Below are positions 45,893 to 60,379 of a DNA stretch of 64,000 bases, piece by piece (the first letter of the stretch is position 1; each line of letters starts with the position of its first letter). The notes beneath the pieces are model-generated. The model was not told the DNA's origin, searched no databases, and worked only from the letters and a program-made list of their open reading frames with translations. The stretch is from Candidatus Omnitrophota bacterium (GTDB taxonomy: Bacteria; Omnitrophota; Gorgyraeia; Zapsychrales; Aceulaceae). Where the stretch lies: contig JAKQPK010000050.1 in assembly GCA_029564765.1 (NCBI GenBank), positions 210,977 to 274,976 on the forward strand, read 5' to 3'. The position numbers and the translations under genes are program-made.

Positions 45893-46876
45893 TTATTTCT
45901 TAAGCGTGTGACCGAAACCTATGCCGATCTTGCGACCAGCGGCGAGGATCATTTTTTCTACGCACTTGCGGCAAGTGGAAGCATCTTCAGATAAGCATAT
46001 TTTATCTGGATAGATCTCGTAGAATTTACGATATTGCATGGGTGTGATGTTAGGCATGATAATATTAGCGCCGCAGGCAAGGGCTTTTTGTCGTCCCTGC
46101 GCGTCAAGCGTGCCGACAGCGGTCGTCGCCGGAATGTGGGCATCACAGGTGATGATGCGGGTTAATGCGATAACCTTGAGCACTGTCTCGATTTTGACAT
46201 CCTTATCTCCTGCCAAAGGCGTATTTGGATGCGGCAAAAATGGTCCGATGCCGATCATATCAAGCTCAAGGGACCTAAAAAGCAAAATATCGTCTGCAAT
46301 ACTTTCAGGTGTCTGCCCTGGCAAGCCTACCATGATCCCAGAACCAACCTGATAACCTAACTCTTTAAGCCAATGAAGGCATTGCAAACGTTCGCTAAAG
46401 AGATGTCCAGGCCTTAAACGAGCGTACAACTTCTCATCTGAGGTTTCAAAGCGTAAAAGATAGCGGTCGGCCCCCGCTTCTTTAAGCTTTCGATAATCCT
46501 CTTTGGGGCGCTCGCCAATGGACAATGTGATCGCGATATTGAATTTCTTGATCTCATGGATCATGCGACAGAAATCATCCACATGATAAAAAAGATCTTC
46601 TCCGGACTGCAAAACGATCGTCGGGATCCCAAGTTCAACCGCCCTGCGTGCGTTTAAAACGATCTCATCAAACGTCATACGATAACGCGCAACCTTTTCG
46701 TTGCCTTGGCGCAGTCCGCAATACAAACAATTTTGGCCGCAATAATTTGAAAACTCAATGATGCCGCGCAAATGGACCGCTTCGCCACAGTATTGTTTGC
46801 GGACTTGGTCAGCGCGCGCAAAAAGATCTGAAGTTTCTACTGATCGAAACTGTTCAACAATTCGTTCTTTATTCAT
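45893..46876 (-). CDS. hydE: [FeFe]-hydrogenase maturase HydE (radical SAM, BioB-like)
   Basis: SNYCGQNCLYCGLRQGN CxxxCxxC motif; 327 aa. Clustered with hydG and hydF. Confidence 0.8.
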   Translation of the reverse strand: MNKERIVEQFRSVETSDLFARADQVRKQYCGEAVHLRGIIEFSNYCGQNCLYCGLRQGNEKVARYRMTFDEIVLNARRAVELGIPTIVLQSGEDLFYHVDDFCRMIHEIKKFNIAITLSIGERPKEDYRKLKEAGADRYLLRFETSDEKLYARLRPGHLFSERLQCLHWLKELGYQVGSGIMVGLPGQTPESIADDILLFRSLELDMIGIGPFLPHPNTPLAGDKDVKIETVLKVIALTRIITCDAHIPATTAVGTLDAQGRQKALACGANIIMPNITPMQYRKFYEIYPDKICLSEDASTCRKCVEKMILAAGRKIGIGFGHTLKK

Positions 46877-46882
46877 GATCGA

Positions 46883-48370
46883 TCACAGATAAAGATCCCT
46901 TTCGCCTTTTTGGATGCGCGTGTAGTAGTCTATGAGTTTTGGAAAAAGCTTTGGCATTTTTTGCCTAACTTCCTCGATCTCCCGCGCCAAGACCGGCTCG
47001 GCGATTCTTTTTGTTTCTTCTGAGGCAAAGTCATCCAGCCATTCACGAAATGTCAGGATCGCATTCAGTTTGCAAAACTTCCCTTCTGTGCCGTCACGCA
47101 AAAGATCCATGATGCATTTTCCGGTACGTCCGCAACGATAACCAGCCGTACAAAAAGAAGTAATGTACCCTTTCTGCGCGAACTCCTTGATCACTTCATC
47201 CAAGCTCCTTGTATCACCAAGGAGGAACTGTTGCTTTTCTTTCTTCTGCTTTTCTTCTGGACTGTCATAGGCACCCACACCAATACGGCTTGAGGCGTCG
47301 GTTTGCGTAATGCCAAGCTCCAGAACATCTCGGCGTATTTGCTCATTTTCGCGCGCGGTAACAATAAGGCCGGCGTGCGGAACACTTAGACGGAGGATCA
47401 TAACAATTTTTTTAAAATCCTCATCATTTACACGGTAACGGGAAAAGTGATCAAGCTCGACTTTATGCGCTGGCTCAAGCCGCGGAAATGATATCGTATG
47501 CGGCCCAATGCCAAGTTTTTTCTCAAGTTCGATCGCGTGATACAGAAGCCCTAGGACTTCAAACCGCCAGTCATAAAGCCCGAATAAAATACCAATCCCG
47601 ACATCATCGATCCCGGCCTCTAGGGCTCGATGCATGCAATACAGCCGCCACGCATAGTTCCCTTTGATCGTATTAGCCGGATGAACACGTGCGTACGTTG
47701 CATGATGATACGTTTCTTGAAAAACCTGATACGTCCCCAACCCGACTTCTTTTAGGCGAACAAGATCTTCAATGGAAAATGGTGGCGCATTCACATTGAC
47801 ACGGCGGATATTGCCAACACCATGTTTTGTCTTGCTTTGAACGCTGTAGATCGTTCTGATTGTTTCTAAAATATAATTAATATCATTCTTGGGGTGTTCT
47901 CCGTACACAACAACCAACCGCTTATGCCCAATGCCGCCTGCCAGGGCCTCCACTTCTTTCTTGATCTCTTCCGCAGACAGGACACGACGGGCAACATCTT
48001 GATTGTCAGCTTTCAGGCCGCAATACGCGCAGTTGTTCACGCAAAAATTCCCTAAATATAAAGGCGCAAAGGTAACGATGCGATTGTCATAAACTTTCTT
48101 CTTAACCTCAAGCGCTGCCTTTTTCATCTCATCCAACAGATCCGGATCGCGAACATTCATTAAAAGAACCGTCTCTTGGGGTGAGAGTGTTTGAACAGAT
48201 AAGGATTTCGCCAAGATATCTTTTAACTCACGAAGATCAGGGCTGCGCTTGTTCTGCAAAAAGAACGTCATCTGGTCTTCGTTGATAAAATCTTTACCGT
48301 TATCGAGATACTTATCTATCTCATCTTGCTTAATAGGATTCTTGAACTTTGCTGTGACAGCTGCACTCAT
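46883..48370 (-). CDS. hydG: [FeFe]-hydrogenase maturase HydG (radical SAM tyrosine lyase)
   Basis: CVNNCAYCGLKADN radical-SAM motif. C-terminal extra Cys cluster (FCTAGYRCGRTGKCIMD...FCKLN). Start set at the internal ATG 48370, which has GAGGU 8 nt upstream and avoids overlap with hydF. Confidence 0.8.
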   Translation of the reverse strand: MSAAVTAKFKNPIKQDEIDKYLDNGKDFINEDQMTFFLQNKRSPDLRELKDILAKSLSVQTLSPQETVLLMNVRDPDLLDEMKKAALEVKKKVYDNRIVTFAPLYLGNFCVNNCAYCGLKADNQDVARRVLSAEEIKKEVEALAGGIGHKRLVVVYGEHPKNDINYILETIRTIYSVQSKTKHGVGNIRRVNVNAPPFSIEDLVRLKEVGLGTYQVFQETYHHATYARVHPANTIKGNYAWRLYCMHRALEAGIDDVGIGILFGLYDWRFEVLGLLYHAIELEKKLGIGPHTISFPRLEPAHKVELDHFSRYRVNDEDFKKIVMILRLSVPHAGLIVTARENEQIRRDVLELGITQTDASSRIGVGAYDSPEEKQKKEKQQFLLGDTRSLDEVIKEFAQKGYITSFCTAGYRCGRTGKCIMDLLRDGTEGKFCKLNAILTFREWLDDFASEETKRIAEPVLAREIEEVRQKMPKLFPKLIDYYTRIQKGERDLYL

Positions 48371-48374
48371 TTTA

Positions 48375-49628
48375 CTACCTCTGTTTCTTTGCCTTTTCAT
48401 CTTGAAACGCCTTGAGCGCCTGAGGAAATGGTGTTAAAACCCTTTCCAGAACACCCTGCAAAAAAGAAATGCATACACCATAATTGGTAACCGAAACACC
48501 AGCCTGTTGTGCATGATACATGCGCGATAACGTTTCTCGACGCGTAAGCATACAAGAACCGCAAAGAATTGCCAGCTTGTATCCTTTTAGATATTCGGGA
48601 TAATCACGGCCAGCGCAGACATCAATTTTTAGGTCTAAGCCTGTGTATTTTTTCAACCAGCGCGGGATCTTCACCCGGCCGATATCGTCCTCAACCGCAT
48701 GATGACTGCAAGACTCTGCGATCAAAATACGATCACCCTTCTTAAGGTTGTCGATGGCAACAACTCCGCGCGACATCTCGCTTAGATCCCCTTTCATACG
48801 CGCGAAGAGGATCGAAAATGTCGTGCAAGATACGTTTTTAGGAGTTTCCTTGACCATGCGGTCAACTACTTGCGAGTCGCAAACAACGATATCTGGAGGG
48901 GTTTTCAGATCGCCCAAAACTTTCAAATACTCAGTTTCTTTCACGATAATGCTCACGCCGCTCGCATCGAGCGTATCCCTGATAACTTGTACCTGCGGCA
49001 AAATGATGCGCCCTTTTGGCGCTTCCAAGTCAATAGGGATAATGAGCAAGGCTGTTCCGCCTTTGGGCATGAGATCTCCCACAAGAGCCGGAGGCTTGAT
49101 AAAATCTTCCGGGCAACACGTCACAAGCTGTTCCTTGAGGCCATTGACAAAGCTATCACGTTTATCTTTCTGAACACTGCTCACGCAAACGACTTTTTCT
49201 GTCTTTTTTCGCAATCTTTCTAGAAGTGTCTTTTGAGGAGCCTCGACATCGATCTTATTAACAACAACGACATAAGGGATGTTGCGCTTTAGCGCCTCAG
49301 AGCAAACATAATCCTCAAAATCAGTCCAAATGTTTGGCTCTGTGACCAGCAAAATGATATCTGAGCGATCAAAGATCTTTTTTGTCTTCTTGATACGTAG
49401 ATCTGAAAGCGTCGACACGTCATCTAGTCCGGCCGTATCTAAAAAAACCACCGGACCTAAAGGTAGAAGCTCCATAACCTTTTCGACAACATCCGTGGTT
49501 GTCCCTGGCACAGGTGACGTGATGGCGACATCTTGACCGGCCACCATATTCAGAAAACTTGACTTTCCGACATTCGTTCGGCCAAAAAGACCGATCTGTA
49601 AACGTAATGATTTTGGTGTTTTTTCCAT
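48375..49628 (-). CDS. hydF: [FeFe]-hydrogenase maturase GTPase HydF
   Basis: G1 GRTNVGKSS, G2 TT, G3 DTAG, G4 NKID. C-terminal CxH...C cluster region; 417 aa. Confidence 0.8.
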   Translation of the reverse strand: MEKTPKSLRLQIGLFGRTNVGKSSFLNMVAGQDVAITSPVPGTTTDVVEKVMELLPLGPVVFLDTAGLDDVSTLSDLRIKKTKKIFDRSDIILLVTEPNIWTDFEDYVCSEALKRNIPYVVVVNKIDVEAPQKTLLERLRKKTEKVVCVSSVQKDKRDSFVNGLKEQLVTCCPEDFIKPPALVGDLMPKGGTALLIIPIDLEAPKGRIILPQVQVIRDTLDASGVSIIVKETEYLKVLGDLKTPPDIVVCDSQVVDRMVKETPKNVSCTTFSILFARMKGDLSEMSRGVVAIDNLKKGDRILIAESCSHHAVEDDIGRVKIPRWLKKYTGLDLKIDVCAGRDYPEYLKGYKLAILCGSCMLTRRETLSRMYHAQQAGVSVTNYGVCISFLQGVLERVLTPFPQALKAFQDEKAKKQR

Positions 49629-49643: not shown

Positions 49644-49895
49644 TTACGCTACTTTGACTAATGCGGACTTAACAGAAACACCCTTGATCTCGCCCAAGCG
49701 TCCTGTCAGAGCGCCGATTTCATCGGTCGTGGCATCCACGATCAAGGTGATCACACCGATATTTTTCTCTTTGTAGGGGATCCCCATGCGCCCGACGAAC
49801 ATCTTGGCATGCTGGTGCAGAATGTGGTTGACCGCCTCTGCGCTTTGTTCTCTGTCATGGATAATGATCCCAATAAAACCCAAACGATTATTCAT
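49644..49895 (-). CDS. TM1266-like putative iron-only hydrogenase system regulator (ACT-like)
   Basis: About 83 aa starting MNNRLGFIGIII...NIGVITLIVDA. Start at 49895 has AAGGAAGGGAAGG just upstream. Confidence 0.55.
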   Translation of the reverse strand: MNNRLGFIGIIIHDREQSAEAVNHILHQHAKMFVGRMGIPYKEKNIGVITLIVDATTDEIGALTGRLGEIKGVSVKSALVKVA

Positions 49896-49942
49896 GGCCT
49901 TCCCTTCCTTGATATGTACCAAACCTGCCGGACAGGTCGATC

Positions 49943-50106: not shown

Positions 50107-50451
50107 TTACTTCTTCATCAACTCATCAATGGTCTGGTCAACCATTGTAACATACGTCATAGCGCTTGCGCCGCCCACCAAGACAGCGACCATGCACGCT
50201 TCCAGCATTTCTTCCTTGGTCCAGCCCTGCTTTAAACAGTTCGTGACGGCGCGGGCAAGGCAAACAGGACATTTCTGGCTAACGCTAGAGACAAGCATCA
50301 GCAACCATTTTGTTTTTTCAGGAAGACGATTTGATCTTAAAATTGTTTCTTTTTCTTTAATGAACGCCTCATACTCGGCAGGAACGGTCTTGCGAATATC
50401 GCTCATGCGTTCATTGAAATCGCTCAAGATCACCTTTGGGTCATAGACCAT
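50107..50451 (-). CDS. Carboxymuconolactone decarboxylase / AhpD-like family protein
   Basis: CPVCLARAV CxxC core in the AhpD-like context; 114 aa. Confidence 0.65.
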   Translation of the reverse strand: MVYDPKVILSDFNERMSDIRKTVPAEYEAFIKEKETILRSNRLPEKTKWLLMLVSSVSQKCPVCLARAVTNCLKQGWTKEEMLEACMVAVLVGGASAMTYVTMVDQTIDELMKK

Positions 50452-50506: not shown

Positions 50507-52285
50507 TCAAATTTTATCACTTCGGTCAACATAATGTGTATGTAAAAGCTCATGGCTTTTATGCCCACAGGGCCCGTCCTTGAAAAACTCTTCATATAAC
50601 TTTTTAACATCTGGATTTTCATGTGACTTGCGAAGACTCTTGCCCTCATCTTCTTTATAGATCGCTTGGATACGTGCCTGGCGCACCTCATCCGTTGTGA
50701 ATCGTGGCTGTCCACCGCCACCGATACATCCCCCAGGACAGGTCATGACCTCAACAAAATGATACTGTGCCTTGCCAGCCTTGATCAGGTCCAATAATGC
50801 TGCCGCGTTCGATAAGCCATGAGCCACAGCGACCTTAAGCTCTACCCCTTCTAAGAAAGACCATGCGGGAAGGACTTTTTCAAGCTTAAGCGCTGCTTCT
50901 TTGATCCCTTGAAGCCCTGCCAGGGGCTGAATATGCAAATTCTCTGTTGGCAGCCCGCGTCCCGTGACAATCTCGTAAGCGGTGCGGATCGCGGCTTCCA
51001 TAACGCCACCGCTGTTGGCAAAAATATCCGCGGCCCCGGATGAAAGCCCAAGGGGTGAATCCATCTGTCCGTCTTCCAATGCGCGAAAGTCAATACCAGC
51101 AGCCTCGATCATCTGACCCAGTTCCCGGGTTGTCAAAACATAATCAACATCCTTAACACCGCTGCTGCTCATTTCTGGACGAGTTGATTCAAATTTCTTG
51201 GCTGTGCACGGCATCACGGAAACGACCACCATATCTTCCGGACGCACGCCTTTTTTCTGGGCGTAAAATGTTTTGGCGATAGCCCCGAACATTTGCTGCG
51301 GAGATTTGCAAGAAGAAAGATTGGACAAAAACTCAGGATAAAAATACTCAGTAAACTTGATCCATCCCGGGGAGCAACTGGAAAATTGCGGCAACGCAAC
51401 AGGTTGCTTATCCACCAAAGCTTTCTTTAATCTCATTAAAAGCTCTGTCCCTTCTTCCATGATCGTTAAGTCTGCGGTAAAATTCGTATCAAAGACCGCG
51501 TGAAAACCCATGCGGCGAAGAGCTGTGATCATTTTGCCCGTCACCAAAGTTCCCGGCGGATAATCAAAGCACTCTCCCAGCGCTGCGCGGATCGCCGGAG
51601 CTGTCTGCACGATGACATGTTTTGTTTTATCTTCTAAGGCGGCCCAAACCATATCGACATGACTTTTCTCAACGATCGCGCCCACAGGGCAGACAGCTGC
51701 GCACTGGCCGCACTGCACGCACGGCACATCATCCAACCCCAACTCAAAAGCAGGCCCGATCAACGTTTTGTATCCACGATTTTGAGGGAACAACGCCCCC
51801 ACTCTTTGGATCTCATTGCAAACGGTCACACACCGTCGACATTTAATGCATTTTCCTGAATCACGCATTAATGCTGCCGTTGTCGTGTCTAAAGATCTTT
51901 TTGGTTTCTCACCAACATAATGCGATTCCCGGATCCCCAAGCTATAAGCTAAAGTTTTCAATTCACAGTCATCTGCCCGATCACAAATCTGACAATCCCC
52001 TTCATGCTCACTCAAAAGAAGTTCAACGACGAGTTTGCGCGCCTTACGGACACGCGGGCTATTGGTAAAAACAACCATCCCTTCGTTGACTGGTGTTGAG
52101 CACGAAGAGACCAAATTGCGGCCTCCTTGAATTTCTACAACACAGACACGGCACGCGCCAATAGGGTCTTTGCCCTGCAAATAACACAAAGTTGGGATAA
52201 TAATGCCTATCTTTTTTGCCGCCTGTAGGATCGTTGTTTCAGGGGGAACTTCTACGCAGTTGCGATCAATCGTTAGCTTTATCAT
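50507..52285 (-). CDS. hydA: [FeFe]-hydrogenase catalytic subunit paralog (M3 architecture) with a non-canonical L1 motif SSCSPGW
   Basis: N-terminal [2Fe-2S] plus 4Fe-4S domains. L2 MPCTAKKFE and L3 EVMTCPGGCIGGGGQP are canonical. L1 reads FSSCSPGW (DNA agt-tgc-tcc checked) where the canonical motif is TSCCPxW. It aligns residue-for-residue with ITSCCPSW of the plus-strand HydA. Confidence 0.8.
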   Translation of the reverse strand: MIKLTIDRNCVEVPPETTILQAAKKIGIIIPTLCYLQGKDPIGACRVCVVEIQGGRNLVSSCSTPVNEGMVVFTNSPRVRKARKLVVELLLSEHEGDCQICDRADDCELKTLAYSLGIRESHYVGEKPKRSLDTTTAALMRDSGKCIKCRRCVTVCNEIQRVGALFPQNRGYKTLIGPAFELGLDDVPCVQCGQCAAVCPVGAIVEKSHVDMVWAALEDKTKHVIVQTAPAIRAALGECFDYPPGTLVTGKMITALRRMGFHAVFDTNFTADLTIMEEGTELLMRLKKALVDKQPVALPQFSSCSPGWIKFTEYFYPEFLSNLSSCKSPQQMFGAIAKTFYAQKKGVRPEDMVVVSVMPCTAKKFESTRPEMSSSGVKDVDYVLTTRELGQMIEAAGIDFRALEDGQMDSPLGLSSGAADIFANSGGVMEAAIRTAYEIVTGRGLPTENLHIQPLAGLQGIKEAALKLEKVLPAWSFLEGVELKVAVAHGLSNAAALLDLIKAGKAQYHFVEVMTCPGGCIGGGGQPRFTTDEVRQARIQAIYKEDEGKSLRKSHENPDVKKLYEEFFKDGPCGHKSHELLHTHYVDRSDKI

Positions 52286-55200
52286 TATGCCTGACCCCCT
52301 TTCTGCTCAACGCACTTCCCATAGTCACAGCGCAAACATCTTTTTGCCTGGCGTCGGGCTACCCCTTCGTTCCAAGATTGTTCTACCTCGTCAAAATTAT
52401 GCTTTCGCCGTGCAACGTCGATCAAGCGCAAAGGCTCCCGCGGATAAGGCACGGGATCCGCATCAGGATCAAAATCAACCTTGGTCTCTTTTTGCTTGCG
52501 CCAAAAGGCATGCGCTTCCCCTGTCAGGTACTGATCGATGCCAACGGCCGCACGCTCTCCAGAGGCAATAGCCATGACAACAGAGGACGGCCCTGTAGCC
52601 ACATCCCCTCCGGCAAAAATCCCTTCTGCTGACGTCTTGCCCGATACAGGATCCGCGATAATAAAACTTTTTTCAGAAAGCTTAACAACAGAACCGTCAA
52701 GGATCTTTTTTGCATCCATCTTCTGTCCTATCGCCACGATCACTTGATCTGTTTCAATATCAAAAACATCCTCTGTGTTAGCTGTTGGCCGACGGCGCCC
52801 TGTCTGATCAAAATCCCCAAGCTTCATATGGATACACTTTAGTCCACAGACCTTTCCGTTCTTGTCTTTTTTGATCTCGATCGGATGGGTGAGAGGTAAT
52901 ATCTTAACGCCTTCATGAACCGCCTCATCCACTTCTTCAGCATAAGCCGGCATTTCATTCTGGCTGCGTCGATAAATGACCGTGACCTCTTGCGCTCCTA
53001 AGCGCAAGGCGCTTCGCGACGCATCGATCGCCGCGTTACCACCTCCAACGACAATGACCTTTTTACCAACGGGAACTGACCCGCGGATATTATAAGTCCT
53101 TAAGAAATCCAAGGCATCCACAACACCCTGAGCGTCCTCACCATCGAGACCTAAGCGCACACTCTCTGGAGCACCCACAGCGACAAAGATCGCCTCATAA
53201 CCATGCTTCTTCAAGGATTCAATCGTAAAATCACGCCCTAAGGCCTTTCCTGTCTCAATATCAACGCCTAGCTGCTCGATCATGCGGATCTCCCTAGCTA
53301 ATGTTTCTCTTGGCAGGCGGTAGGCCGGGATCGTCTGCACGAGCATCCCTCCGGGGCGCATCTCTTTTTCAAAAACCTTAGGACGATAACCAAGCCGTGC
53401 GAGAAAATAAGCGCACGATAGCCCCGCGGGCCCCGCTCCAATAATAGCGATCTTTTTTGTGGCATTCTTTTCATTCTGATGCATTTCAGGGATCTGGACA
53501 ACGATCTCCTGGTCAACCATGAAACGCTTAACACCGCGGATGGAAACAGAAGTATCGAGTGTTGCGCGACGACATTTGTCTTCACACGTGTGAAAACAGA
53601 CGCGAGCGCAAACAGCGGCGAACGGATTGCGTTCACGGTGCAGCTTTAAGGCCTCCGCATACCGCTCTTCACCCGTTAACGCGACAAATCCCGGAACATC
53701 AACGCCGGCAGGGCAAGCACTTTGACAAGGAGCGCGAACAAGATCCGGACAAACCCCCGCCTCACAATGCTTATCGCGAATATGTTCTTCATATTCCTTA
53801 GGAAAATGACGCAATGTCGAACGAACAGGATTCGCGGAAGTATAGCCTAAACCGCACAAGGCCGAATCTTTAATGCCTTCGCCCAGTTCTACGAGTTTTT
53901 TCAGATCAGCTGGCTCCCCTTCTCCCCGGCATATTTTTTCAAGGATCTCAAGCATACGCTTGGACCCTACCCGGCACGGCACACATTTCCCGCAAGATTC
54001 ATCTTGCACGAACTCAAGAAAAAATCTCGCGACATCCACGATACAGGAATCATCATCCATAACAATGAGGCCGCCAGAACCCATGATGGCCCCAAGCTCA
54101 ACAAGCGTATCGTAATCCAAAGGAACATTTAGATGTTGTTTAGGGATGCATCCTCCTGATGGCCCTCCGATCTGAGCAGCTTTGAACTCTTTTCCATTTT
54201 TAATACCGCCACCGATATCATAGATCAGCTCCCCTAAAGATGTTCCGATCGGAACCTCAACGAGCCCTGTATTGTTCACAGCACCTGCCAAAGCGAAGAC
54301 CTTTGTTCCCTTGCTCTTCTCGGATCCCATTGAAGCAAACCAATCCGCACCCTTTAAAAGGATCACAGGGACATTGACATATGTTTCCACATTATTCAAA
54401 AGACTTGGCTTTCCCCACAACCCTTTGATCGCTGGAAACGGTGGCCGAGGACGTGGTTCGCCGCGTTTGCCTTCCAAGGACGCCATAAGCGCGGTCTCTT
54501 CCCCACACACAAAAGCCCCGGAACCCATACGAATATCAAGATCAAAAGAAAAATCTGTTCCAAGGATCTTATCCCCTAAAAGACCACAGGCACGCGCCTG
54601 CTCGATCGCCTTCATTAATCGTGAAACAGCCAACGGATATTCTGCGCGCACATAAACAAATCCTTGTTTCGCACCGATCGCTAAAGCAGCGATCATCATC
54701 CCTTCGATAACGCTATGAGGATCTCCTTCAAGAACGCTGCGGTTCATGAACGCTCCGGGGTCACCTTCATCCGCATTGCAAATGACATATTTCACATCCC
54801 CTAAAGCCTTACGCGCGAAATCCCACTTCATGCCGGTAGAAAAACCTGCCCCTCCGCGACCGCGCAAGCCCGATCTCTTGACTTCGTCGATGATCTGATC
54901 AGCTGTTAACGAGGTTAACGCTTTTGCTAATGCCTGATACCCGTCAACCCGGATATAGTCAACGATATTCTGAGGATCGATCGTCCCGCAATGACGCAAA
55001 ACAACCTTTGTCTGCCGCTTAAAAAAATCAACATCCTTGATATCCTGAACAGCTTGGTTCGTTTCGTAATTCCGGTGCAAAAGACGCTCGACAACTTTTC
55101 CTTTGAACAGATGTTCTTCAAAGATCTGATCAACATCCTGAAGGGAAACATTCTCATAAAAAACATGTCCCGGGTTAACGACCATCACAGGCCCCTTCGC

Positions 55201-55422
55201 GCAAGGCCCTAAGCATCCGGTTTCCACAATATCGATCACGACACCATTTTTTTCTATTTTCTCCTGAAGCCGCTTCTTGATCTCCAACGCGCCGCTGGCA
55301 ATACATCCTCCTCCCGTGCAAATGAGGACTTCCTTGTATATGCTTCGCCTTGCCTTTTCTGCAACAGCGGCATCCTTGATGCGATCCAACTCTTTTAGTG
55401 ATGTGATCCTCTCAGTTAACAT
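52285..55422 (-). CDS. NuoF-like NAD(H)-binding hydrogenase subunit (HydB/HndC) fused to a GltD-like NAD(P)H:FAD oxidoreductase domain
   Basis: N-terminal Trx-like [2Fe-2S]. NuoF core GRGGAGFSTGMKWDF, ESCGKCVPCR. Two ferredoxin-like 4Fe-4S sites. C-terminal about 450 aa carry IAIIGAGPAGLSCAYFLA...VIVVGGGNAAIDASRSA (GltD/NfnB/SudA-type). Confidence 0.8.
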   Translation of the reverse strand: MLTERITSLKELDRIKDAAVAEKARRSIYKEVLICTGGGCIASGALEIKKRLQEKIEKNGVVIDIVETGCLGPCAKGPVMVVNPGHVFYENVSLQDVDQIFEEHLFKGKVVERLLHRNYETNQAVQDIKDVDFFKRQTKVVLRHCGTIDPQNIVDYIRVDGYQALAKALTSLTADQIIDEVKRSGLRGRGGAGFSTGMKWDFARKALGDVKYVICNADEGDPGAFMNRSVLEGDPHSVIEGMMIAALAIGAKQGFVYVRAEYPLAVSRLMKAIEQARACGLLGDKILGTDFSFDLDIRMGSGAFVCGEETALMASLEGKRGEPRPRPPFPAIKGLWGKPSLLNNVETYVNVPVILLKGADWFASMGSEKSKGTKVFALAGAVNNTGLVEVPIGTSLGELIYDIGGGIKNGKEFKAAQIGGPSGGCIPKQHLNVPLDYDTLVELGAIMGSGGLIVMDDDSCIVDVARFFLEFVQDESCGKCVPCRVGSKRMLEILEKICRGEGEPADLKKLVELGEGIKDSALCGLGYTSANPVRSTLRHFPKEYEEHIRDKHCEAGVCPDLVRAPCQSACPAGVDVPGFVALTGEERYAEALKLHRERNPFAAVCARVCFHTCEDKCRRATLDTSVSIRGVKRFMVDQEIVVQIPEMHQNEKNATKKIAIIGAGPAGLSCAYFLARLGYRPKVFEKEMRPGGMLVQTIPAYRLPRETLAREIRMIEQLGVDIETGKALGRDFTIESLKKHGYEAIFVAVGAPESVRLGLDGEDAQGVVDALDFLRTYNIRGSVPVGKKVIVVGGGNAAIDASRSALRLGAQEVTVIYRRSQNEMPAYAEEVDEAVHEGVKILPLTHPIEIKKDKNGKVCGLKCIHMKLGDFDQTGRRRPTANTEDVFDIETDQVIVAIGQKMDAKKILDGSVVKLSEKSFIIADPVSGKTSAEGIFAGGDVATGPSSVVMAIASGERAAVGIDQYLTGEAHAFWRKQKETKVDFDPDADPVPYPREPLRLIDVARRKHNFDEVEQSWNEGVARRQAKRCLRCDYGKCVEQKGGQA

Positions 55423-55979
55423 GCCGCAGCCTCCTGTGTCGGTTGTTTCGCGTCACGATACGCGCCCAAAAGCTCTTTGATCTTCGCCGGCTTAACGCGT
55501 TGGTGCACATCATCGTTGATCATGACAACGGGGGCTAAGCCGCAAGCCCCAAAACAACGCCCAACCTCAAGAGAAAACATCTTATCCTCGGTCGTTTCGC
55601 CAATATTAATCCCTAAGGTTTTCTGCATGGCAGATAAAACTTCCTTGCCTCCTCGAACATAACACGCGGTCCCTAGGCAAACACGTACCAAATTCTTTCC
55701 GCGAGGGTTTGTTGAAAAGAAAGAATAAAAAGAAACAACACCAGCCACCTGGCTATAAGGAATATGTAGTCGCTCACCGATACGGCGTAGGACATTTTTC
55801 GGAAGATATCCAAACAAATTCTGAGCAGCCTGCAAGATGGGGATCAACGCGCCATCCGTAGATTGATACGTATCAATGATCACGTCTAATCGCTTGAGCA
55901 TCTCGCTTTCTGAAAGCTCGCTGCAACCGCAGGAAGCTGTGGGTGGATTCTCTGACGGGTTCTGATGTGCTTGCTTCAC
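55416..55979 (-). CDS. NuoE-like [2Fe-2S] thioredoxin-fold hydrogenase subunit (HydC/HndA)
   Basis: CLGTACYVRGG...CFGACGLAPVVMIND. GTG start with AGGAGG 4 nt upstream. Overlaps the start of the NuoF-GltD gene by 7 nt. Confidence 0.75.
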   Translation of the reverse strand: MKQAHQNPSENPPTASCGCSELSESEMLKRLDVIIDTYQSTDGALIPILQAAQNLFGYLPKNVLRRIGERLHIPYSQVAGVVSFYSFFSTNPRGKNLVRVCLGTACYVRGGKEVLSAMQKTLGINIGETTEDKMFSLEVGRCFGACGLAPVVMINDDVHQRVKPAKIKELLGAYRDAKQPTQEAAAC

Positions 55980-56211: not shown

Positions 56212-56934
56212 TTACGTTAAACGGATCACGACTTTCTTTTGATTCAAGGCTTGTTTTAAATGTGCCAACGATAATGTTGGCATCTCGATCTCGTTATAGA
56301 CACAGCCAATGTCTTTCGGTAAATGCGCATCCGAGCTTGACACAAGGGCGTAGGGATGCTGTCCTAGGTCGACTGCGCTGCACTGCGCATGATACACCTC
56401 CAAGGCATCAACGATCGGCTCCGCGGGAATAAAACCAAGCTGGGAAACAAGGCCAAAGACCATCCGGTCGACATGCGCCGGAATGATCAGGCCGTTGCGC
56501 TTCCTGACGCTGGCGCAAAGATCATAAAAGCTGATCGTCGTCGCGTTGCCAAGATATTTTTCAACAAAACCCAGCACCTCTTCCTCCTCATTCACATAAA
56601 CCTGATCCCCAAAGATCTCAGGCTGATTACGAACATCCGGTAAATGCGCTTCCACATAAGAACCAAACTCCTGGATCGTTTCAAGATCTTGAAAAAGACA
56701 AAGGACATGACATTCTTCGCGCGTTGTGACTTCTGCGCCTCCCAGGCAAAATAGATTTGATCGCTGACACAAAGAAAAGAAGGCAGGACAATTACGAGTA
56801 CAGTTGTGGTCCGTCAAAGCGATCAACGACATCCCCTTCTTAAGCGCGGCAGCAACAATGTTCTGAGGAGACATCTCCAGGCTCGCGCAAGGCGAAACGG
56901 TTGAATGAATATGAAAATCCGCCTTAACGCGCAT
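56212..56934 (-). CDS. PHP-domain (polymerase/histidinol-phosphatase-like) metal-dependent phosphoesterase
   Basis: ADFHIHSTVSPCAS...ALTDHN PHP motifs I and II; 240 aa. Confidence 0.7.
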   Translation of the reverse strand: MRVKADFHIHSTVSPCASLEMSPQNIVAAALKKGMSLIALTDHNCTRNCPAFFSLCQRSNLFCLGGAEVTTREECHVLCLFQDLETIQEFGSYVEAHLPDVRNQPEIFGDQVYVNEEEEVLGFVEKYLGNATTISFYDLCASVRKRNGLIIPAHVDRMVFGLVSQLGFIPAEPIVDALEVYHAQCSAVDLGQHPYALVSSSDAHLPKDIGCVYNEIEMPTLSLAHLKQALNQKKVVIRLT

Positions 56935-57268
56935 GATCCTTTGCCAGCAATTGGCCGATCAACACGGACAGGTCGAACTGATTAAGCGTTGAGCAAAAAA
57001 TCGCGATGCGTTCTTTTTTAGCGGCCTGCGCCATATCTTCGAGGATCTCGCGATCGTTGGCAATGATCAACGCGCGAATACCAACTAATTTCGCGACAGC
57101 GATCGTATTGATATGGGCCTGGATAGTGATGAGCACGTTATCTGCTGCGGCATGCGCCATCACATCACTCAAAAGATCTGAGGTATAACCTCCAGTAATC
57201 ACCGCGTCATCAAAATCTTCCTGGACAAGCTTCAGCTGCGCGCACCGTGTGAGGTCTTTAATGGTCAT
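56924..57268 (-). CDS. DRTGG-domain protein
   Basis: 114 aa; ...ITGGYTSDLLSDVM... pattern of the DRTGG family found in hydrogenase-linked regulatory clusters. Confidence 0.5.
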   Translation of the reverse strand: MTIKDLTRCAQLKLVQEDFDDAVITGGYTSDLLSDVMAHAAADNVLITIQAHINTIAVAKLVGIRALIIANDREILEDMAQAAKKERIAIFCSTLNQFDLSVLIGQLLAKDHAR

Positions 57269-58199
57269 GCTCTTCTCCTTTTTTATTCTTAAAATAAATA
57301 ACAGCCCGAACGGTCGTCCCTTTGCCTAAAGAGGATTGAAACTCAAATTCATCCGAAACCCGGCGGATATTCGCCAGCCCCATCCCCGCTCCAAAACCTA
57401 AGGATTTGATCCATTCGTTAGCGGTTGAATACCCTTCTTGAAGGGCAAGCTCTGGGTTTTCAATCCCAGGGGCTGCGTCCTTGGCGACGATCTCCGCGCG
57501 ATCTTGATCGATCGCGACCGTCAGCGTCCCTCCTTCAGAATGGACGGTAATATTGATCTCCATTTCGTACATCGCGACAGCGACGCGACGGATATCCCGA
57601 GGATCATGCTTGCGTTCTGTTAAAAGCTTTTTGATCCGGTTAGAGGCGATCCCGGCATGCTCAAAATCATACTTACGGATGCGAAACACTTTACGAAAAT
57701 TCTTGGCATCCACCGGCGCATTCTGAGCCAACATTTCTTCCATGCGCGAAACTTCTTTATTGATCGCCATGAGAAGCCCCACATTGATGTCGCGGCTTGT
57801 GATCATGCCGACCAAAAGATTATCCTTGTCCACAACAGGAAAACGCCCATACTTAAACTTATCAAAATAAGATATCGCGAACGCCAAAGGCATATCTTCT
57901 TCTAAGATCACCAACTTCTTGGACATATATTTCTCAGCTAACTCATCCATATAGCCATTATCAAGCGCCTTAAAAATATCATCAATGCTTAAAATGCCTA
58001 AAAGTCGGTCTTTTTTGACGATCGGAATGCCAGTCACATTCCTCTGTTTCATCAATGTTTTGATATGATGGAGCGTGTCTTGAGCGCAGGCAACGACCAG
58101 ATCGCGGCTCATGACATCCTTGATCTTCAGCTGATAGATCAGATCAAGGATCAATGACGCAGAATCTTCGGCCTTGATCGGGATGTTCTTATCGATCAT
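57258..58199 (-). CDS. CBS-pair domain fused to a GHKL (HATPase_c, RsbW-type anti-sigma Ser kinase-like) domain
   Basis: Two CBS motifs (IKDVMSRDLVV...GIPIV; GRFPVVDKDNLLVGMITSRD). C-terminal HSEGGTL...GFGAGMGLANIRRVSDEF G1/G2 ATP-lid motifs. Confidence 0.65.
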   Translation of the reverse strand: MIDKNIPIKAEDSASLILDLIYQLKIKDVMSRDLVVACAQDTLHHIKTLMKQRNVTGIPIVKKDRLLGILSIDDIFKALDNGYMDELAEKYMSKKLVILEEDMPLAFAISYFDKFKYGRFPVVDKDNLLVGMITSRDINVGLLMAINKEVSRMEEMLAQNAPVDAKNFRKVFRIRKYDFEHAGIASNRIKKLLTERKHDPRDIRRVAVAMYEMEINITVHSEGGTLTVAIDQDRAEIVAKDAAPGIENPELALQEGYSTANEWIKSLGFGAGMGLANIRRVSDEFEFQSSLGKGTTVRAVIYFKNKKGEEHDH

Positions 58200-58540
58200 G
58201 CCGCGTGCTCCTTAAGGCGATGAATGATGCCGCAGGTCTGAAAAGTGGAAAGCTTGGTCCTTAATAACGTAATATCGAATTCTTTTGCAGCAGCCTTCAT
58301 ATCCGCAGAGACTGGTTTTCCATTGACGATCACAACGCCGATGGCGCTGACGATATCCGCGGTCCGGATCGCCTGGGCGGTCGATAAAGACGTGATCAGG
58401 ATATCGATCTCATTATCGACCAATAACACATCGCTCATCAAATCTGAGGCGATAAACGATCTTAAATCTTTTGTCCCACCTTCTTTGCGCCGGTACAAAA
58501 TTTCACAATCTAGCTCTTTGATAAGCGTATCACCCTTCAT
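58196..58540 (-). CDS. DRTGG-domain protein (second copy)
   Basis: Start set at MKGDTLIKE (ATG 58540), which has AAGGAAAGAGG upstream and lies 5 nt past the Rex stop. Same family pattern as the 56924-57268 protein. Confidence 0.5.
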   Translation of the reverse strand: MKGDTLIKELDCEILYRRKEGGTKDLRSFIASDLMSDVLLVDNEIDILITSLSTAQAIRTADIVSAIGVVIVNGKPVSADMKAAAKEFDITLLRTKLSTFQTCGIIHRLKEHAA

Positions 58541-59192
58541 GAAGCAACCTCTTTCCTTTATGATAATCGTGGTCCTTGCTGAGCGCATTTACAAAATAAA
58601 ACAAATTCTCGATCTTAAGCTCAATATTAACCGTATCGACAACCGTCCCTTCAGCTTCTCGAATGTAAACTCTGGCAAAATTCAGAACACCTTTAATGCC
58701 CGCTGCCGCCATCTTCTCATAGATCGTCGCGCAGTCGTTCTCAGGGACAGCGATAATACCGACCTTGATCTGATTCTTTTTGACAAAATCTTCCATTCTT
58801 TCAAGCGGATAGATCGGGACCTTCGCGTCCGGGTCCCACTTAGCCTTGTTGATATCAAAACCCGCCATGATCTTTAATTTTTCTCCGTGGAAACCGTTAT
58901 ACTCAATGAGCGCGCGGCCAATATTGCCACAACCTACAACGATCACGCGCTGCTTTTTGTCGCCTACAAGGATATGATCCAGCTTATCGATCAGCGCATC
59001 CACGCTATAGCCTCCACGCTTATTGCCGGTGATCTTAAAAGCGGAGAAATCCTTGCGCACTTGTGATGATGCCAATCCTGTGGCGTCCCCAAGGTTATCG
59101 GAAAACACCTTCACAAGCCCAAGTTTTTTAAAATTCGTTAACGCGTTCTTATACTTAAGCAATCTTGATATGAATTCCTTACTCTCAGTCAC
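58530..59192 (-). CDS. rex: Redox-sensing transcriptional repressor Rex
   Basis: N-terminal wHTH plus Rossmann NADH site VVGCGNIGRAL; 220 aa. Confidence 0.85.
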   Translation of the reverse strand: MTESKEFISRLLKYKNALTNFKKLGLVKVFSDNLGDATGLASSQVRKDFSAFKITGNKRGGYSVDALIDKLDHILVGDKKQRVIVVGCGNIGRALIEYNGFHGEKLKIMAGFDINKAKWDPDAKVPIYPLERMEDFVKKNQIKVGIIAVPENDCATIYEKMAAAGIKGVLNFARVYIREAEGTVVDTVNIELKIENLFYFVNALSKDHDYHKGKRLLHEG

Positions 59193-59260
59193 ATAAACCT
59201 CCTTATTTCGTATATTTTATGTAATGATAGTATCATAATCTATTATGTTGTCAATTTAAA

Positions 59261-59276
59261 TGTTATTGTAATAACA
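59261..59276. promoter_or_regulatory. Candidate Rex operator
   Basis: TGTTATT-gt-AATAACA inverted repeat (context aaaTGTTATTGTAATAACAaaa), close to the clostridial-type Rex consensus TTGTTAA-N4-TTAACAA. Ends 11 bp before the -35 element of the plus-strand hyd promoter, in the divergent region shared with rex. Confidence 0.5.
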
Positions 59277-59287
59277 AAACATTTTTC

Positions 59288-59316
59288 TTGATTAATTACG
59301 CCCTTTCACTTATAAT
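59288..59316 (+). promoter_or_regulatory. Near-consensus sigma70 promoter of the plus-strand hydrogenase operon
   Basis: TTGATT (59288-59293), 17 nt, TATAAT (59311-59316); about 37 nt before the ATG at 59354. Confidence 0.55.
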
Positions 59317-59353
59317 TTCCCCTATTCTTAAGCGTTGTGATCAGGAGGATAAA

Positions 59354-59824
59354 ATGGAAACGATCAAAAACCTTGAACTAAAACCTTCCCTTATTGACTA
59401 TATCGCTCAATGGAGAGATAAACCAGGAAACCTTATCATGATCTTGCATAAGGCCCAAGAAGAATACGGGTTTATCCCTCGCGATGTCGCTTTCAAGCTT
59501 GCTGAAGTTCTGGATGTTCCTCTGGCAAAGATCTATGGCGTTATTACCTTCTATCATTTCTTTAAATTAGAAAAACGAGGAAAGAATATCATTAATGTCT
59601 GTATGGGTACAGCCTGTTATCTAAAAGGCGGTGAAGACATCATTAAAGAACTTGAGATCATTTTGGGTGTTGGCCTGAACACGGTCACGCCCGATGGAAA
59701 ATTTTCCGTTGAGGCTGTACGTTGTTTAGGCTGTTGCGGCTTGGCTCCGGTCGTATCGATTAACGGGACCGTTTATGGTAAGCTGTCCAAAAACCAGCTC
59801 CCAGAAATTCTTTCTAAGTATTAA
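59354..59824 (+). CDS. NuoE-like [2Fe-2S] hydrogenase subunit HydC
   Basis: CMGTACYLKGG...CLGCCGLAPVVSING. AGGAGG 6 nt upstream of the ATG; the ORF track starts 22 codons earlier. Confidence 0.8.
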   Translation: METIKNLELKPSLIDYIAQWRDKPGNLIMILHKAQEEYGFIPRDVAFKLAEVLDVPLAKIYGVITFYHFFKLEKRGKNIINVCMGTACYLKGGEDIIKELEIILGVGLNTVTPDGKFSVEAVRCLGCCGLAPVVSINGTVYGKLSKNQLPEILSKY

Positions 59825-59827
59825 ACA

Positions 59828-60370
59828 ATGCATTTAACGCTTTGTGATTTCTTAAGCGATATCGTTGAGAACGCGATCGCGTCAGACGCGACAATGATCA
59901 TCGTGGATGTGATTGAAAGCGAGGAAGAATTTCGCTTTCTGATCGCGGATAACGGGAAAGGGATGGACCCGGAAACGCTGTCAAAGGTACACAGCCCTTT
60001 TACGACCGATGGCAAAAAACACCATCGGCCCCAAGGATTTGGCGTGTCGTTTCTAGCGCAAGCGGCTGACCATGGTTGCGGGACATGGGATATTCGGTCT
60101 GAAAAAGACCTTGGGACGTCGGTCATGTTCACCTTTCTTAAGGCACATATCGACACTCCCCCGCTGGGTGATGTGACCCAAACGCTCTTGCAGCTCCTCG
60201 CCTTTGACGGAAAGCATGATCTGTTGATCAATCGATCGCGCAAGGACAGAAAATATTCTGTCCTTCGCAGTGATCTGATAAAAACTTTAAGCGATTTGTC
60301 TTGCGCTGGCAATCTAATGTTAGCTAAACGATACATTGATAGCCTTGAGCAAGACATCAAAAAAACATAG
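59828..60370 (+). CDS. GHKL-type (HATPase_c) ATP-binding protein encoded inside the hyd operon
   Basis: IADNGKGMD...GFGVSF G1/G2-like motifs. Position between hydC and the [2Fe-2S] gene, as in Thermoanaerobacter-type hydABCD operons. Confidence 0.5.
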   Translation: MHLTLCDFLSDIVENAIASDATMIIVDVIESEEEFRFLIADNGKGMDPETLSKVHSPFTTDGKKHHRPQGFGVSFLAQAADHGCGTWDIRSEKDLGTSVMFTFLKAHIDTPPLGDVTQTLLQLLAFDGKHDLLINRSRKDRKYSVLRSDLIKTLSDLSCAGNLMLAKRYIDSLEQDIKKT

Positions 60371-60379
60371 GAGTTATTT

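What the first reader, a model, noticed from the sequence alone, without database searches (positions are those of the whole stretch)
50507..52285. HydA paralog with Ser replacing the [4Fe-4S]H-ligating Cys in the L1 motif
- The minus-strand catalytic subunit has L1 FSSCSPGW (codons agt-tgc-tcc) where group-A enzymes have TSCCPxW.
- Aligned to the plus-strand HydA in this same window (ITSCCPSW), the substituted position is the second Cys. In CpI numbering that is C300, one of four Cys ligating the cubane of the H-cluster.
- L2 (MPC) and L3 (CxxGCxxGGG) are intact.
- A Ser at this position would change or abolish H-cluster assembly or tune its potential.
- Possible readings: a divergent or sensory/regulatory hydrogenase, a Ser-ligated cluster, or a single-base (G to C) sequencing error.
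Basis: seen in the sequence. Interest (0 to 1): 0.55.

Follow-up and report, generated by a model that had tools for sequence, protein, structure and literature searches.

The report
Natural serine-ligand variant of HydA hydrogenase
The serine is real and conserved in every relative examined, but it is a documented natural variant of the catalytic subunit of multi-subunit [FeFe] hydrogenases, also present in the active, structurally solved Acetobacterium woodii enzyme, so the finding is ordinary.

Summary
The minus-strand HydA (50507..52285, 592 aa) has L1 = FSSCSPGW. Ser305 (codon TCC, 51373..51371) sits where CpI has Cys300, a ligand of the H-cluster cubane. L2, L3 and the proton-transfer residues are intact.

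It is not a sequencing error. All 120 closest database proteins and all 80 related genome loci, from more than ten phyla, carry Ser there, using six different Ser codons.

It is not a sensory hydrogenase. The gene is translationally coupled to hydC and hydB, lies next to hydF, hydG and hydE, keeps the proton-transfer Cys and has no PAS domain.

The variant is already documented:
- A. woodii HydA1 (PDB 7Q4V/7Q4W) has TSCSPGW. Ser301 was reported as a cubane ligand, with normal FTIR signatures and normal activity.
- A 2024 survey of Hydrogenedentota reports Ser as common at this position. It also describes the same HydB with a fused GltD-like FAD/NAD(P) module ("sub-type I BfuABC").
- The engineered C170S variant of Chlamydomonas HydA1 stays active and is biased towards H2 evolution.

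Verdict: a new member of a known kind, of low interest. What the Ser does for catalysis, and what the fused complex couples to, are both still untested.

The parts
50507..52285 (-). hydA: catalytic subunit of an M3-type group A [FeFe] hydrogenase, 592 aa
   Evidence: ORF. Pfam Fe_hyd_lg_C, Fe_hyd_SSU, Fer2_4, NADH-G_4Fe-4S_3 and Fer4 domains. NCBIfam NF040763 group A6 scores 868 bits against a cutoff of 765. The AF2 model superposes on HydA of T. kivui and A. woodii HydABC with TM 0.92.
51362..51385 (-). L1/P1 motif FSSCSPGW (aa 301-308). Cys304 corresponds to CpI C299, the proton-transfer Cys.
51371..51373 (-). Ser305 codon TCC, at the position of CpI C300 / CrHydA1 C170 / A. woodii Ser301 (ligand of the [4Fe-4S]H cubane)
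   Evidence: Ser is conserved in 120/120 proteins and 80/80 loci.
51188..51214 (-). L2 motif MPCTAKKFE (Cys360 corresponds to CpI C355)
50705..50752 (-). L3 motif EVMTCPGGCIGGGGQP (Cys516 and Cys520 correspond to CpI C499 and C503)
51674..52285 (-). N-terminal accessory-cluster domains of HydA: [2Fe-2S] (aa 1-76), NuoG-type [4Fe-4S] (aa 83-122), 2x[4Fe-4S] (aa 145-204)
   Evidence: Pfam domains; coordinates.
52285..55422 (-). hydB, 1045 aa. NuoF-like FMN/NADH subunit whose usual C-terminal 2x[4Fe-4S] domain is replaced by a GltD-like module (Fer4_20/DPD_II plus an FAD/NAD(P)-binding domain). Its stop codon overlaps the hydA start.
   Evidence: Pfam and NCBIfam. In PDB searches aa 28-564 match bifurcating HydB (7t2r_B, 7q4v_B) and aa 563-1037 match the GltD module of NfnA/StnC (9bov_A, 9n5u_A, 8oh5_C). 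The fusion lies upstream of hydA in 60 of 67 loci with at least 60% identity.
55416..55979 (-). hydC: NuoE-like thioredoxin-like [2Fe-2S] subunit. It overlaps the hydB start.
45893..49628 (-). H-cluster maturases: hydF (48375..49628), hydG (46883..48400), hydE (45893..46876)
   Evidence: NCBIfam equivalogs TIGR03918, TIGR03955 and TIGR03956, all above their cutoffs.
49644..49922 (-). TM1266-like putative iron-only hydrogenase system regulator, between hydA and hydF
   Evidence: Pfam PF21699.
62580..64000 (+). Comparator: second hydA, truncated by the window end, with canonical ITSCCPSW. It belongs to a hydC / HATPase / small 2Fe-2S protein / hydB / hydA cluster (59288..64000).

Best explanation
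The gene encodes a functional catalytic subunit (HydA/BfuA) of a multi-subunit NAD(P)H-linked [FeFe] hydrogenase. It belongs to a large natural lineage in which the L1 cubane ligand (CpI C300) is Ser instead of Cys. By analogy with A. woodii HydA1, Ser305 most likely binds one Fe of the [4Fe-4S]H subcluster through its oxygen as a serinate. Cys360, Cys516 and Cys520 supply the other three ligands, and Cys520 bridges to the [2Fe] site. Cys304, Glu278, Glu281, Arg285 and Ser324 form the usual proton path. The enzyme is matured by the adjacent HydE, HydF and HydG. It exchanges electrons through its accessory clusters with HydB (FMN plus a fused GltD-like FAD/NAD(P) module) and HydC. Shown here: the residue identity, its conservation, the intact remainder of the active site, the operon and the maturases. 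Inferred from precedent: that Ser is the ligand and that the enzyme is active. Speculative: that the oxygen ligand lowers the cubane potential and favours H2 evolution.
For: Ser sits at the C300 position in ungapped alignments anchored by invariant S303, C304, P306 and W308. All 120 closest proteins (69-99% identity) have [TS]SCSPGW. All 80 genome loci (51-96% identity; Omnitrophota, Planctomycetota, Spirochaetota, Verrucomicrobiota, Actinomycetota, Hydrogenedentota, Bacteroidota, Bacillota) have Ser, with codon counts TCG 45, TCC 11, TCA 7, TCT 5, AGC 11, AGT 1. That is synonymous drift over an unchanging amino acid. Among the 150 best 50%-identity cluster representatives, 27 have SCSP and 96 have SCCP. 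L2, L3 and the CpI-equivalent residues E279, E282, R286, C299, S319, M353, K358 and M497 are conserved. NCBIfam places the protein in group A6 above the cutoff, and HydF, HydG and HydE are adjacent. A. woodii HydA1 (7q4v/7q4w) has ITSCSPGW. The paper on that structure states that Ser301 replaces the Cys ligand of cluster A1, with no apparent influence on the FTIR signature and with activity similar to T. kivui HydABC (PMC10021017; chain identities). [quoted passage not shown] Hydrogenedentota BfuA sub-types commonly have Ser at this P1 position (PMC11406978).
Against: No enzyme of this clade, with the GltD-fused HydB, has been purified, so activity is an extrapolation. The engineered C170S in CrHydA1 matured slowly and only partly (about 10% occupancy after 1 h), so Ser is not neutral in every scaffold. 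I did not inspect the map quality of the A. woodii cryo-EM structure, so the Fe-O(Ser) bond may rest on modelling rather than resolved density; a water or hydroxide ligand cannot be excluded. No co-varying compensatory residue was found that would explain why Ser is well tolerated here.
Confidence: 0.85

Rival explanations
1. The cubane is bound by only three Cys. Ser305 is a second-sphere residue, hydrogen-bonding or holding a water/hydroxide ligand, rather than a direct ligand. The enzyme is still an active hydrogenase.
For: CrHydA1 C170A still holds a [4Fe-4S] cluster, and the authors discuss possible solvent ligation. I did not assess whether the A. woodii cryo-EM map resolves an Fe-O bond (one search gives only the authors' statement).
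Against: C170A did not accept the [2Fe] subcluster, whereas C170S and C170D did. This argues that an oxygen ligand from the side chain matters. Ser is strictly conserved; Ala, Gly or Thr never appear among the 200 relatives. The A. woodii authors model Ser301 as the ligand.
Confidence: 0.1
2. It is a sensory or regulatory hydrogenase (HydS-like, group C/D), or a paralogue with an altered, non-catalytic role.
For: Regulator genes lie nearby: PHP, DRTGG, CBS-HATPase and Rex at 56212..59192. The genome also holds a second, canonical HydA.
Against: There is no PAS or signalling domain. The proton-transfer Cys304 is retained, whereas, from my own knowledge and not checked here, HydS enzymes replace it. 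The architecture is M3 with an SSU-like C-terminus. The gene is translationally coupled to hydB and hydC. NCBIfam assigns group A6 above the cutoff. The same motif occurs in the catalytic A. woodii enzyme.
Confidence: 0.03
3. It is an H-cluster-free, HydA-like electron-transfer scaffold, like StnC/NfnA of the Stn/Nfn-Bfu transhydrogenases. The Ser would mark decay of the active site.
For: The partner HydB carries the same GltD-like module found in StnC/NfnA. Transhydrogenases of this family contain a HydA-like subunit (PMC10482914). That this subunit lacks the H-cluster is my own recollection, not a statement retrieved from that paper.
Against: Only one of the four ligand positions is changed, and to the one substitute known to work. 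L2, L3 and the proton path are invariant across the clade. hydE, hydF and hydG are adjacent. Purifying selection keeps Ser specifically.
Confidence: 0.02
4. It is a single-base sequencing or assembly error (TGC read as TCC).
For: TCC is one substitution from TGC.
Against: Independent assemblies give 120/120 proteins and 80/80 loci with Ser. They include a 99%-identical protein and a 96%-identical locus, and they use six different Ser codons.
Confidence: 0.005

Closest known systems
Acetobacterium woodii HydA1 of the electron-bifurcating HydABC(D) hydrogenase (PDB 7Q4V, 7Q4W, 8A5E; Katsyv et al. 2023, PMC10021017)
   Same: It has the same M3 architecture and the same L1 variant, ITSCSPGWIKF against FSSCSPGWIKF, with Ser301 at the C300 position. 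L2 and L3 are the same. The AF2 model superposes with TM 0.92 at 47% identity.
   Different: A. woodii HydB ends in the usual 2x[4Fe-4S] ferredoxin-like domain, not a GltD fusion. The first L1 residue is Thr rather than Ser. Sequence identity is only about 47%. In Bacillota relatives the Ser codon class is AGY, against TCN here; the A. woodii codon itself was not checked.
'Sub-type I' BfuABC group A3 [FeFe] hydrogenases of Hydrogenedentota (bioinformatic description, mSystems 2024, PMC11406978)
   Same: The BfuB B3/B4 domain is replaced by a DPD_II domain plus a C-terminal FAD/NAD(P)-binding domain. BfuA is M3a type. Ser is common at the fifth position of P1. Hydrogenedentota orthologues at 69-71% identity are among the hits and show the same hydC-hydB(GltD)-hydA order.
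   Different: The window's closest relatives are Omnitrophota and Planctomycetota MAGs, not Hydrogenedentota. I did not read the paper's supplementary figures, so the match in gene order and the sub-type assignment rest on the text alone. No member has been characterised biochemically.
Thermoanaerobacter kivui HydA1 of HydABC (PDB 8A6T)
   Same: It is the best overall sequence and fold match (615 bits, TM 0.92, 50% identity), with the same domain order.
   Different: It has canonical TSCCPSW, with Cys299 as the ligand.
Engineered C170S variant of Chlamydomonas reinhardtii HydA1 (Kertess et al. 2017, PMC5855289)
   Same: It has a Ser at the same ligand position. It shows that the cubane, [2Fe] insertion and turnover survive, with a bias towards H2 evolution.
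   Different: It is an artificial mutant of a minimal M1 enzyme. Maturation and activity are reduced, whereas the natural A. woodii Ser enzyme behaves normally.
Stn / Nfn-Bfu transhydrogenases (StnABC, NfnABC; PDB 8OH5, 9BOV, 9N5U)
   Same: They have the same HydBC-type bifurcating core and the same GltD-like NADPH/FAD module.
   Different: There the GltD module is fused to a HydA/NuoG-like subunit. Here it is fused to HydB, and HydA keeps the H-cluster motifs.

Membership tests
[FeFe] hydrogenase group A catalytic subunit (HydA; NCBIfam 'group A6', HydDB A3-like) | H-domain (PF02906) plus small-subunit-like C-terminus (PF02256), with a family HMM score above the curated cutoff | tested here: met
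   PF02906 E = 5e-94 and PF02256 E = 7e-27. NF040763 scores 868 bits against a cutoff of 765; TIGR02512 scores 513 against 406.
[FeFe] hydrogenase group A catalytic subunit (HydA; NCBIfam 'group A6', HydDB A3-like) | Canonical L1 TSCCPxW with both Cys (proton-transfer Cys and cubane ligand Cys) | tested here: not met
   L1 is SSCSPGW. The first Cys is kept and the ligand Cys is Ser305. The same departure occurs in accepted, active members such as A. woodii HydA1. The textbook motif is therefore too narrow, and this does not exclude the protein from the family.
[FeFe] hydrogenase group A catalytic subunit (HydA; NCBIfam 'group A6', HydDB A3-like) | L2 MPCxxKxxE and L3 ExMxCxxGCxxG | tested here: met
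   MPCTAKKFE at aa 358-366 and EVMTCPGGCIGG at aa 512-523.
[FeFe] hydrogenase group A catalytic subunit (HydA; NCBIfam 'group A6', HydDB A3-like) | Proton-transfer pathway residues (CpI E279, E282, R286, C299, S319) | tested here: met
   E278, E281, R285, C304 and S324 align without gaps and are invariant or nearly invariant in A1.
[FeFe] hydrogenase group A catalytic subunit (HydA; NCBIfam 'group A6', HydDB A3-like) | H-cluster maturases HydE, HydF and HydG encoded in the genome | tested here: met
   TIGR03956, TIGR03918 and TIGR03955 match above their cutoffs at 45893..49628.
[FeFe] hydrogenase group A catalytic subunit (HydA; NCBIfam 'group A6', HydDB A3-like) | H2 oxidation/evolution activity and H-cluster FTIR bands | not testable with these tools
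   This needs purified protein.
Canonical electron-bifurcating HydABC (BfuABC) hydrogenase | Adjacent NuoF-like HydB (FMN, NADH site, N-terminal 2Fe-2S) and NuoE-like HydC | tested here: met
   Pfam Complex1_51K, NADH_4Fe-4S and 2Fe-2S_thioredx are present in HydB, and 2Fe-2S_thioredx in HydC. The start and stop codons overlap. HydB aa 28-564 matches bifurcating HydB structures.
Canonical electron-bifurcating HydABC (BfuABC) hydrogenase | HydB C-terminal 2x[4Fe-4S] ferredoxin-like domain (clusters B3/B4, the proposed ferredoxin site) | tested here: not met
   After aa 564 the sequence is Fer4_20/DPD_II plus Pyr_redox_2, with no match to the C-terminus of A. woodii or T. kivui HydB. The complex should not be filed as a canonical ferredoxin-dependent bifurcating HydABC.
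Canonical electron-bifurcating HydABC (BfuABC) hydrogenase | Ferredoxin- and NAD-dependent bifurcating activity | not testable with these tools
   This needs a biochemical assay.
'Sub-type I' BfuABC (PMC11406978) | BfuB with B3/B4 replaced by DPD_II plus a C-terminal FAD/NAD(P)-binding domain | tested here: met
   compared with the description read.
'Sub-type I' BfuABC (PMC11406978) | BfuA of M3a type with Ser at the fifth position of P1 | tested here: met
   Domain set, with no C-terminal extra 2Fe-2S domain; Ser305; paper text.
'Sub-type I' BfuABC (PMC11406978) | Phylogenetic placement within the paper's sub-type I clade | not tested
   The paper's sequences and trees were not available. Hydrogenedentota orthologues at 69-71% identity with the same operon are among the hits.
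Sensory [FeFe] hydrogenases (HydS, groups C/D) | C-terminal PAS or other signalling domain, and loss of the proton-transfer Cys (CpI C299) | tested here: not met
   Pfam finds no PAS or kinase domain, and Cys304 is retained. The defining features themselves are from my own knowledge of the family.
H-cluster-free HydA-like subunits (StnC / NfnA of Bfu transhydrogenases) | Absence of the H-cluster binding motifs | tested here: not met
   L2, L3 and three of the four ligands are present, and the maturases are adjacent.

The most novel reading that the evidence does not exclude
Ser at the C300 position may be an adaptive setting that has evolved repeatedly, not a neutral variant. An oxygen ligand would lower the [4Fe-4S]H potential and shift the catalytic bias towards H2 evolution in NAD(P)H-coupled multi-subunit hydrogenases. 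The site would toggle between Cys and Ser over evolutionary time: TCN codons occur in the GltD-fusion clade and AGY codons in the Bacillota clade, and both classes are one step from TGY. In this clade the variant goes with an uncharacterised complex in which the ferredoxin-binding domain of HydB is replaced by an NADP(H)/FAD module. That would give a hydrogenase coupling H2 to NAD(H) and NADP(H) together, without ferredoxin.
Probability: 0.25. Interest if true: 0.5.

Novelty: new member of a known kind. Interest (0 to 1): 0.22.

Why it matters
The finding matters mainly as a correction. The textbook L1 motif TSCCPxW is too strict. About a fifth of the nearest 50%-identity clusters of group A HydA sequences carry Ser at the cubane-ligand position, as do whole clades across more than ten phyla. 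Annotation or screening rules that require both Cys would wrongly reject or flag these active-type enzymes. The unresolved part is quantitative: what a serinate ligand does to the potential, bias and oxygen sensitivity of the H-cluster in its native scaffold. The literature read here offers only one sentence on the A. woodii enzyme and one mutant study. The partner HydB-GltD fusion, which has been predicted but never purified, is the more interesting biochemical target in this locus.

Tried and rejected
1. Sequencing error: rejected on orthologue evidence.
2. Register shift of the alignment: rejected. The alignments to five solved enzymes are ungapped and the flanking residues are invariant. 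The AF2 model superposes at TM 0.92. The fold search gives no residue-level superposition and AF2 places no cofactors, so it cannot show ligation.
3. Search for a compensatory residue, for example a new Cys. Mutual information between the S/C state and every other column (15 S against 79 C representatives) found nothing above background. Cys326 in SSCKSP also occurs in the C-type plus-strand paralogue.
4. Neighbour-joining tree to count Cys/Ser switches. Ser types are scattered (14 parsimony steps), but the tree is star-like and unreliable at this depth, so I do not rely on the number.
5. Link between Ser and the GltD fusion: rejected as a strict link. Bacillota relatives and A. woodii have Ser with an ordinary HydB.
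6. Full-text searches for TSCSP and CSPGW gave only one relevant paper, on Melainabacteria (PMC3787301), which merely notes the motif. Two papers found with TSCCP plus serine were irrelevant.
7. Read support for the codon could not be checked, because no reads were available.
Full report
**1. What is there**

The minus-strand ORF 50507..52285 encodes a 592-aa protein. Pfam finds the full domain set of an M3-type [FeFe] hydrogenase:
- an N-terminal [2Fe-2S] domain;
- a NuoG-type [4Fe-4S] domain;
- a 2x[4Fe-4S] ferredoxin domain;
- the H-domain, Fe_hyd_lg_C (E = 5e-94);
- the small-subunit-like C-terminus.

NCBIfam places it in "NADH-dependent [FeFe] hydrogenase, group A6", at 868 bits against a cutoff of 765.

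The L1 motif reads F301-S-S-C304-S305-P-G-W308. The codons are agt-tgc-tcc, and the Ser305 codon TCC lies at 51373..51371. L2 (MPCTAKKFE) and L3 (EVMTCPGGCIGGGGQP) are intact. The plus-strand paralogue, starting at about 62580 and truncated by the window end, has ITSCCPSW. It aligns to the minus-strand protein at 45% identity, without gaps through L1.

**2. Which residue is replaced**

Ungapped phmmer alignments to CpI put Cys304 opposite CpI C299 and Ser305 opposite C300. From established knowledge of the family, C299 is the proton-transfer Cys and C300 is a cubane ligand.

S303, C304, P306 and W308 are invariant in a 38-sequence alignment reaching down to 38% identity. A one-residue register shift is therefore not credible.

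The CpI proton-path residues E279, E282, R286 and S319 are conserved, as are M353, C355, K358, M497, C499 and C503.

An AlphaFold2 model has mean pLDDT 90.3, and 91 over residues 301-310. It superposes on HydA of T. kivui (8a6t) and A. woodii (7q4w) with TM 0.92.

**3. Not an error, and not rare**

- All 120 closest database proteins (69-99% identity) have [TS]SCSPGW.
- All 80 related loci from species-representative genomes (51-96% identity) have Ser at this codon. They come from Omnitrophota, Planctomycetota, Spirochaetota, Verrucomicrobiota, Actinomycetota, Hydrogenedentota, Sumerlaeota, Bacteroidota and Bacillota.
- The codon counts in those loci are TCG 45, TCC 11, TCA 7, TCT 5, AGC 11 and AGT 1.

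Free synonymous variation over a fixed amino acid is the signature of purifying selection for Ser.

Among the 150 best representatives of 50%-identity clusters, 27 carry SCSP and 96 carry SCCP. Ser is therefore a substantial minority state of group A enzymes.

The TCN codons belong to the clade of the query. The AGY codons belong to a Bacillota clade at 51-60% identity. Both codon classes are one substitution from Cys TGY but two from each other. This suggests independent origins, or passage through Cys. A neighbour-joining tree scatters the Ser types among the Cys types, but it is too poorly resolved to count events.

**4. Already known**

- *Solved structure.* The only solved structure with this motif is A. 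woodii HydA1 (ITSCSPGW; 7q4v, 7q4w, 8a5e). Katsyv et al. (PMC10021017) state that in the A. woodii enzyme one Cys ligand of the H-cluster cubane (Cys299 in T. kivui) is replaced by Ser301. [quoted passage not shown] They also report that the A. woodii and T. kivui complexes have similar catalytic activities.
- *Genomic survey.* A 2024 survey of Hydrogenedentota (PMC11406978) writes P1 as xTSCxPxWx. [quoted passage not shown]
- *Earlier mention.* Di Rienzi et al. 2013 had already noted TSCSPGW in Melainabacteria.
- *Mutagenesis.* In Chlamydomonas HydA1, C170S (the same position) keeps the [4Fe-4S] cluster and accepts the [2Fe] subsite, though slowly. [quoted passage not shown] The authors attribute this to a lower cubane potential (PMC5855289). 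C170A, by contrast, is dead.

**5. Context and mechanism**

hydA is translationally coupled to hydB (52285..55422), and hydB to hydC (55416..55979). Downstream lie a CMD-family gene, a TM1266-like regulator gene, and hydF, hydG and hydE. This is a catalytic operon, not a sensor. There is no PAS domain, and the proton-transfer Cys is kept.

HydB is unusual. Residues 28-564 match bifurcating HydB structures. The usual C-terminal 2x[4Fe-4S] domain (clusters B3/B4, the proposed ferredoxin site) is replaced by a GltD-like module, made of a DPD_II/Fer4_20 domain plus an FAD/NAD(P)-binding domain. That module matches the NADPH module of NfnA and StnC.

The hydC / hydB-GltD / hydA(Ser) arrangement is present in 60 of 67 loci with at least 60% identity. 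Five of the other seven simply lack upstream DNA. It corresponds to the "sub-type I BfuABC" predicted in PMC11406978. Ser is not tied to the fusion: Bacillota relatives and A. woodii have Ser with an ordinary HydB.

My best explanation, at confidence 0.85, is a functional HydA. Ser305 acts as a serinate ligand of [4Fe-4S]H. Cys360, Cys516 and Cys520 are the other ligands, with Cys520 bridging to the [2Fe] site. The proton path is the normal one, maturation is by the adjacent HydEFG, and electrons pass to HydB and HydC.
- Shown: the residue identity, its conservation, the intact remainder of the site, the operon and the maturases.
- Inferred from A. woodii and from C170S: that Ser is the ligand and that the enzyme is active.
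- Speculative: a lower cubane potential and a bias towards H2 evolution.

**6. Rivals**

- Three-Cys cluster with Ser in the second sphere (0.10). C170A being dead while C170S is active argues against it, as does the strict conservation of Ser.
- Sensory hydrogenase (0.03). The architecture and the operon argue against it.
- H-cluster-free scaffold like StnC (0.02). The intact L2, L3 and proton path, and the adjacent maturases, argue against it.
- Sequencing error (below 0.01). The orthologue comparison refutes it.

**7. Verdict**

This is a new member of a known kind.

Interest is low (0.22), because both the Ser variant and the GltD-fused HydB are already in the literature. Two questions remain open:
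- the quantitative effect of the serinate ligand in its native scaffold;
- the coupling chemistry of the fused complex.

Neither can be settled computationally.

Noticed in passing
window 52285..55422 (-): HydB is a 1045-aa fusion of a NuoF-like bifurcating-type subunit with a GltD/NfnB-like DPD_II plus FAD/NAD(P) module. The module replaces the usual ferredoxin-site 2x[4Fe-4S] domain. The fusion is conserved upstream of hydA in 60 of 67 related loci across many phyla. It has been predicted in the literature ('sub-type I BfuABC') but never characterised. It may couple H2 to NAD(H) and NADP(H) without ferredoxin.
   Followed up: partly
window 56212..64000: A second, canonical hydrogenase cluster lies on the plus strand: hydC 59288..59824, a HATPase-like gene 59828..60370, a small 129-aa protein 60380..60769, hydB 60781..62577, and hydA from about 62580 with TSCCPSW. 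It is arranged divergently from the Ser-type operon. Between the two lie a Rex-like repressor (58530..59192), two DRTGG proteins, a CBS-HATPase protein and a PHP protein. The organism therefore carries a Cys-type and a Ser-type HydABC side by side under apparently shared redox regulation.
   Followed up: partly
loci L001-L080, Ser codon of L1: The Ser codon class splits by clade. It is TCN in all 68 loci outside the Bacillota group, which include every locus carrying the GltD fusion, and AGY in the 12 Bacillota loci. Both classes are one step from Cys TGY and two from each other, which hints at independent Cys-to-Ser replacements or toggling through Cys.
   Followed up: partly
L016, L018, L028, L035, L040, L044, L046, L047, L049, L054, L067: These loci carry a second HydA paralogue (about 50% identical) close to the first, with its own ordinary HydB and HydC. 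It also has TSCSPGW, so Ser types occur in several HydABC sub-types within one genome.
   Followed up: no
P0121 (representative library, 4122 aa): This is a 4122-aa predicted protein with seven tandem H-domains, each with TSCCA[SG]W (Pro of L1 replaced by Ala), MPCTVKK and CEGGCMNG. Six of the repeats are identical over the L1 and L2 stretches inspected. It is either an assembly artefact or an unusual poly-hydrogenase.
   Followed up: no
P0122, P0150, P0164, P0166, P0170, P0173 (representative library, about 1100-1195 aa): These are long HydA proteins carrying roughly 500-600 extra residues N- or C-terminal to a complete H-cluster-bearing HydA. They may be GltD-HydA fusions, that is StnC-like proteins with an H-cluster. 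Some are Ser-type (P0122 TSCSPAW, P0164 TSCSPGW). Their domain content was not checked.
   Followed up: no
window 8576..16129 (-): This is a 2517-aa ORF in which pyruvate-phosphate-dikinase/PEP-utilising domains occupy only residues about 1120-1980. About 1100 N-terminal and 540 C-terminal residues have no Pfam match.
   Followed up: no
window 33540..39197 (-): This is an 1885-aa ORF with a methyltransferase domain, DUF7790 and a weak NpmA-like stretch. It is otherwise unannotated.
   Followed up: no
window 50107..50451 and 49644..49922 (-): A carboxymuconolactone-decarboxylase-family (CMD/AhpD-like) protein and a TM1266-like putative hydrogenase regulator sit between hydA and hydF. Their role in this operon is unknown.
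   Followed up: no
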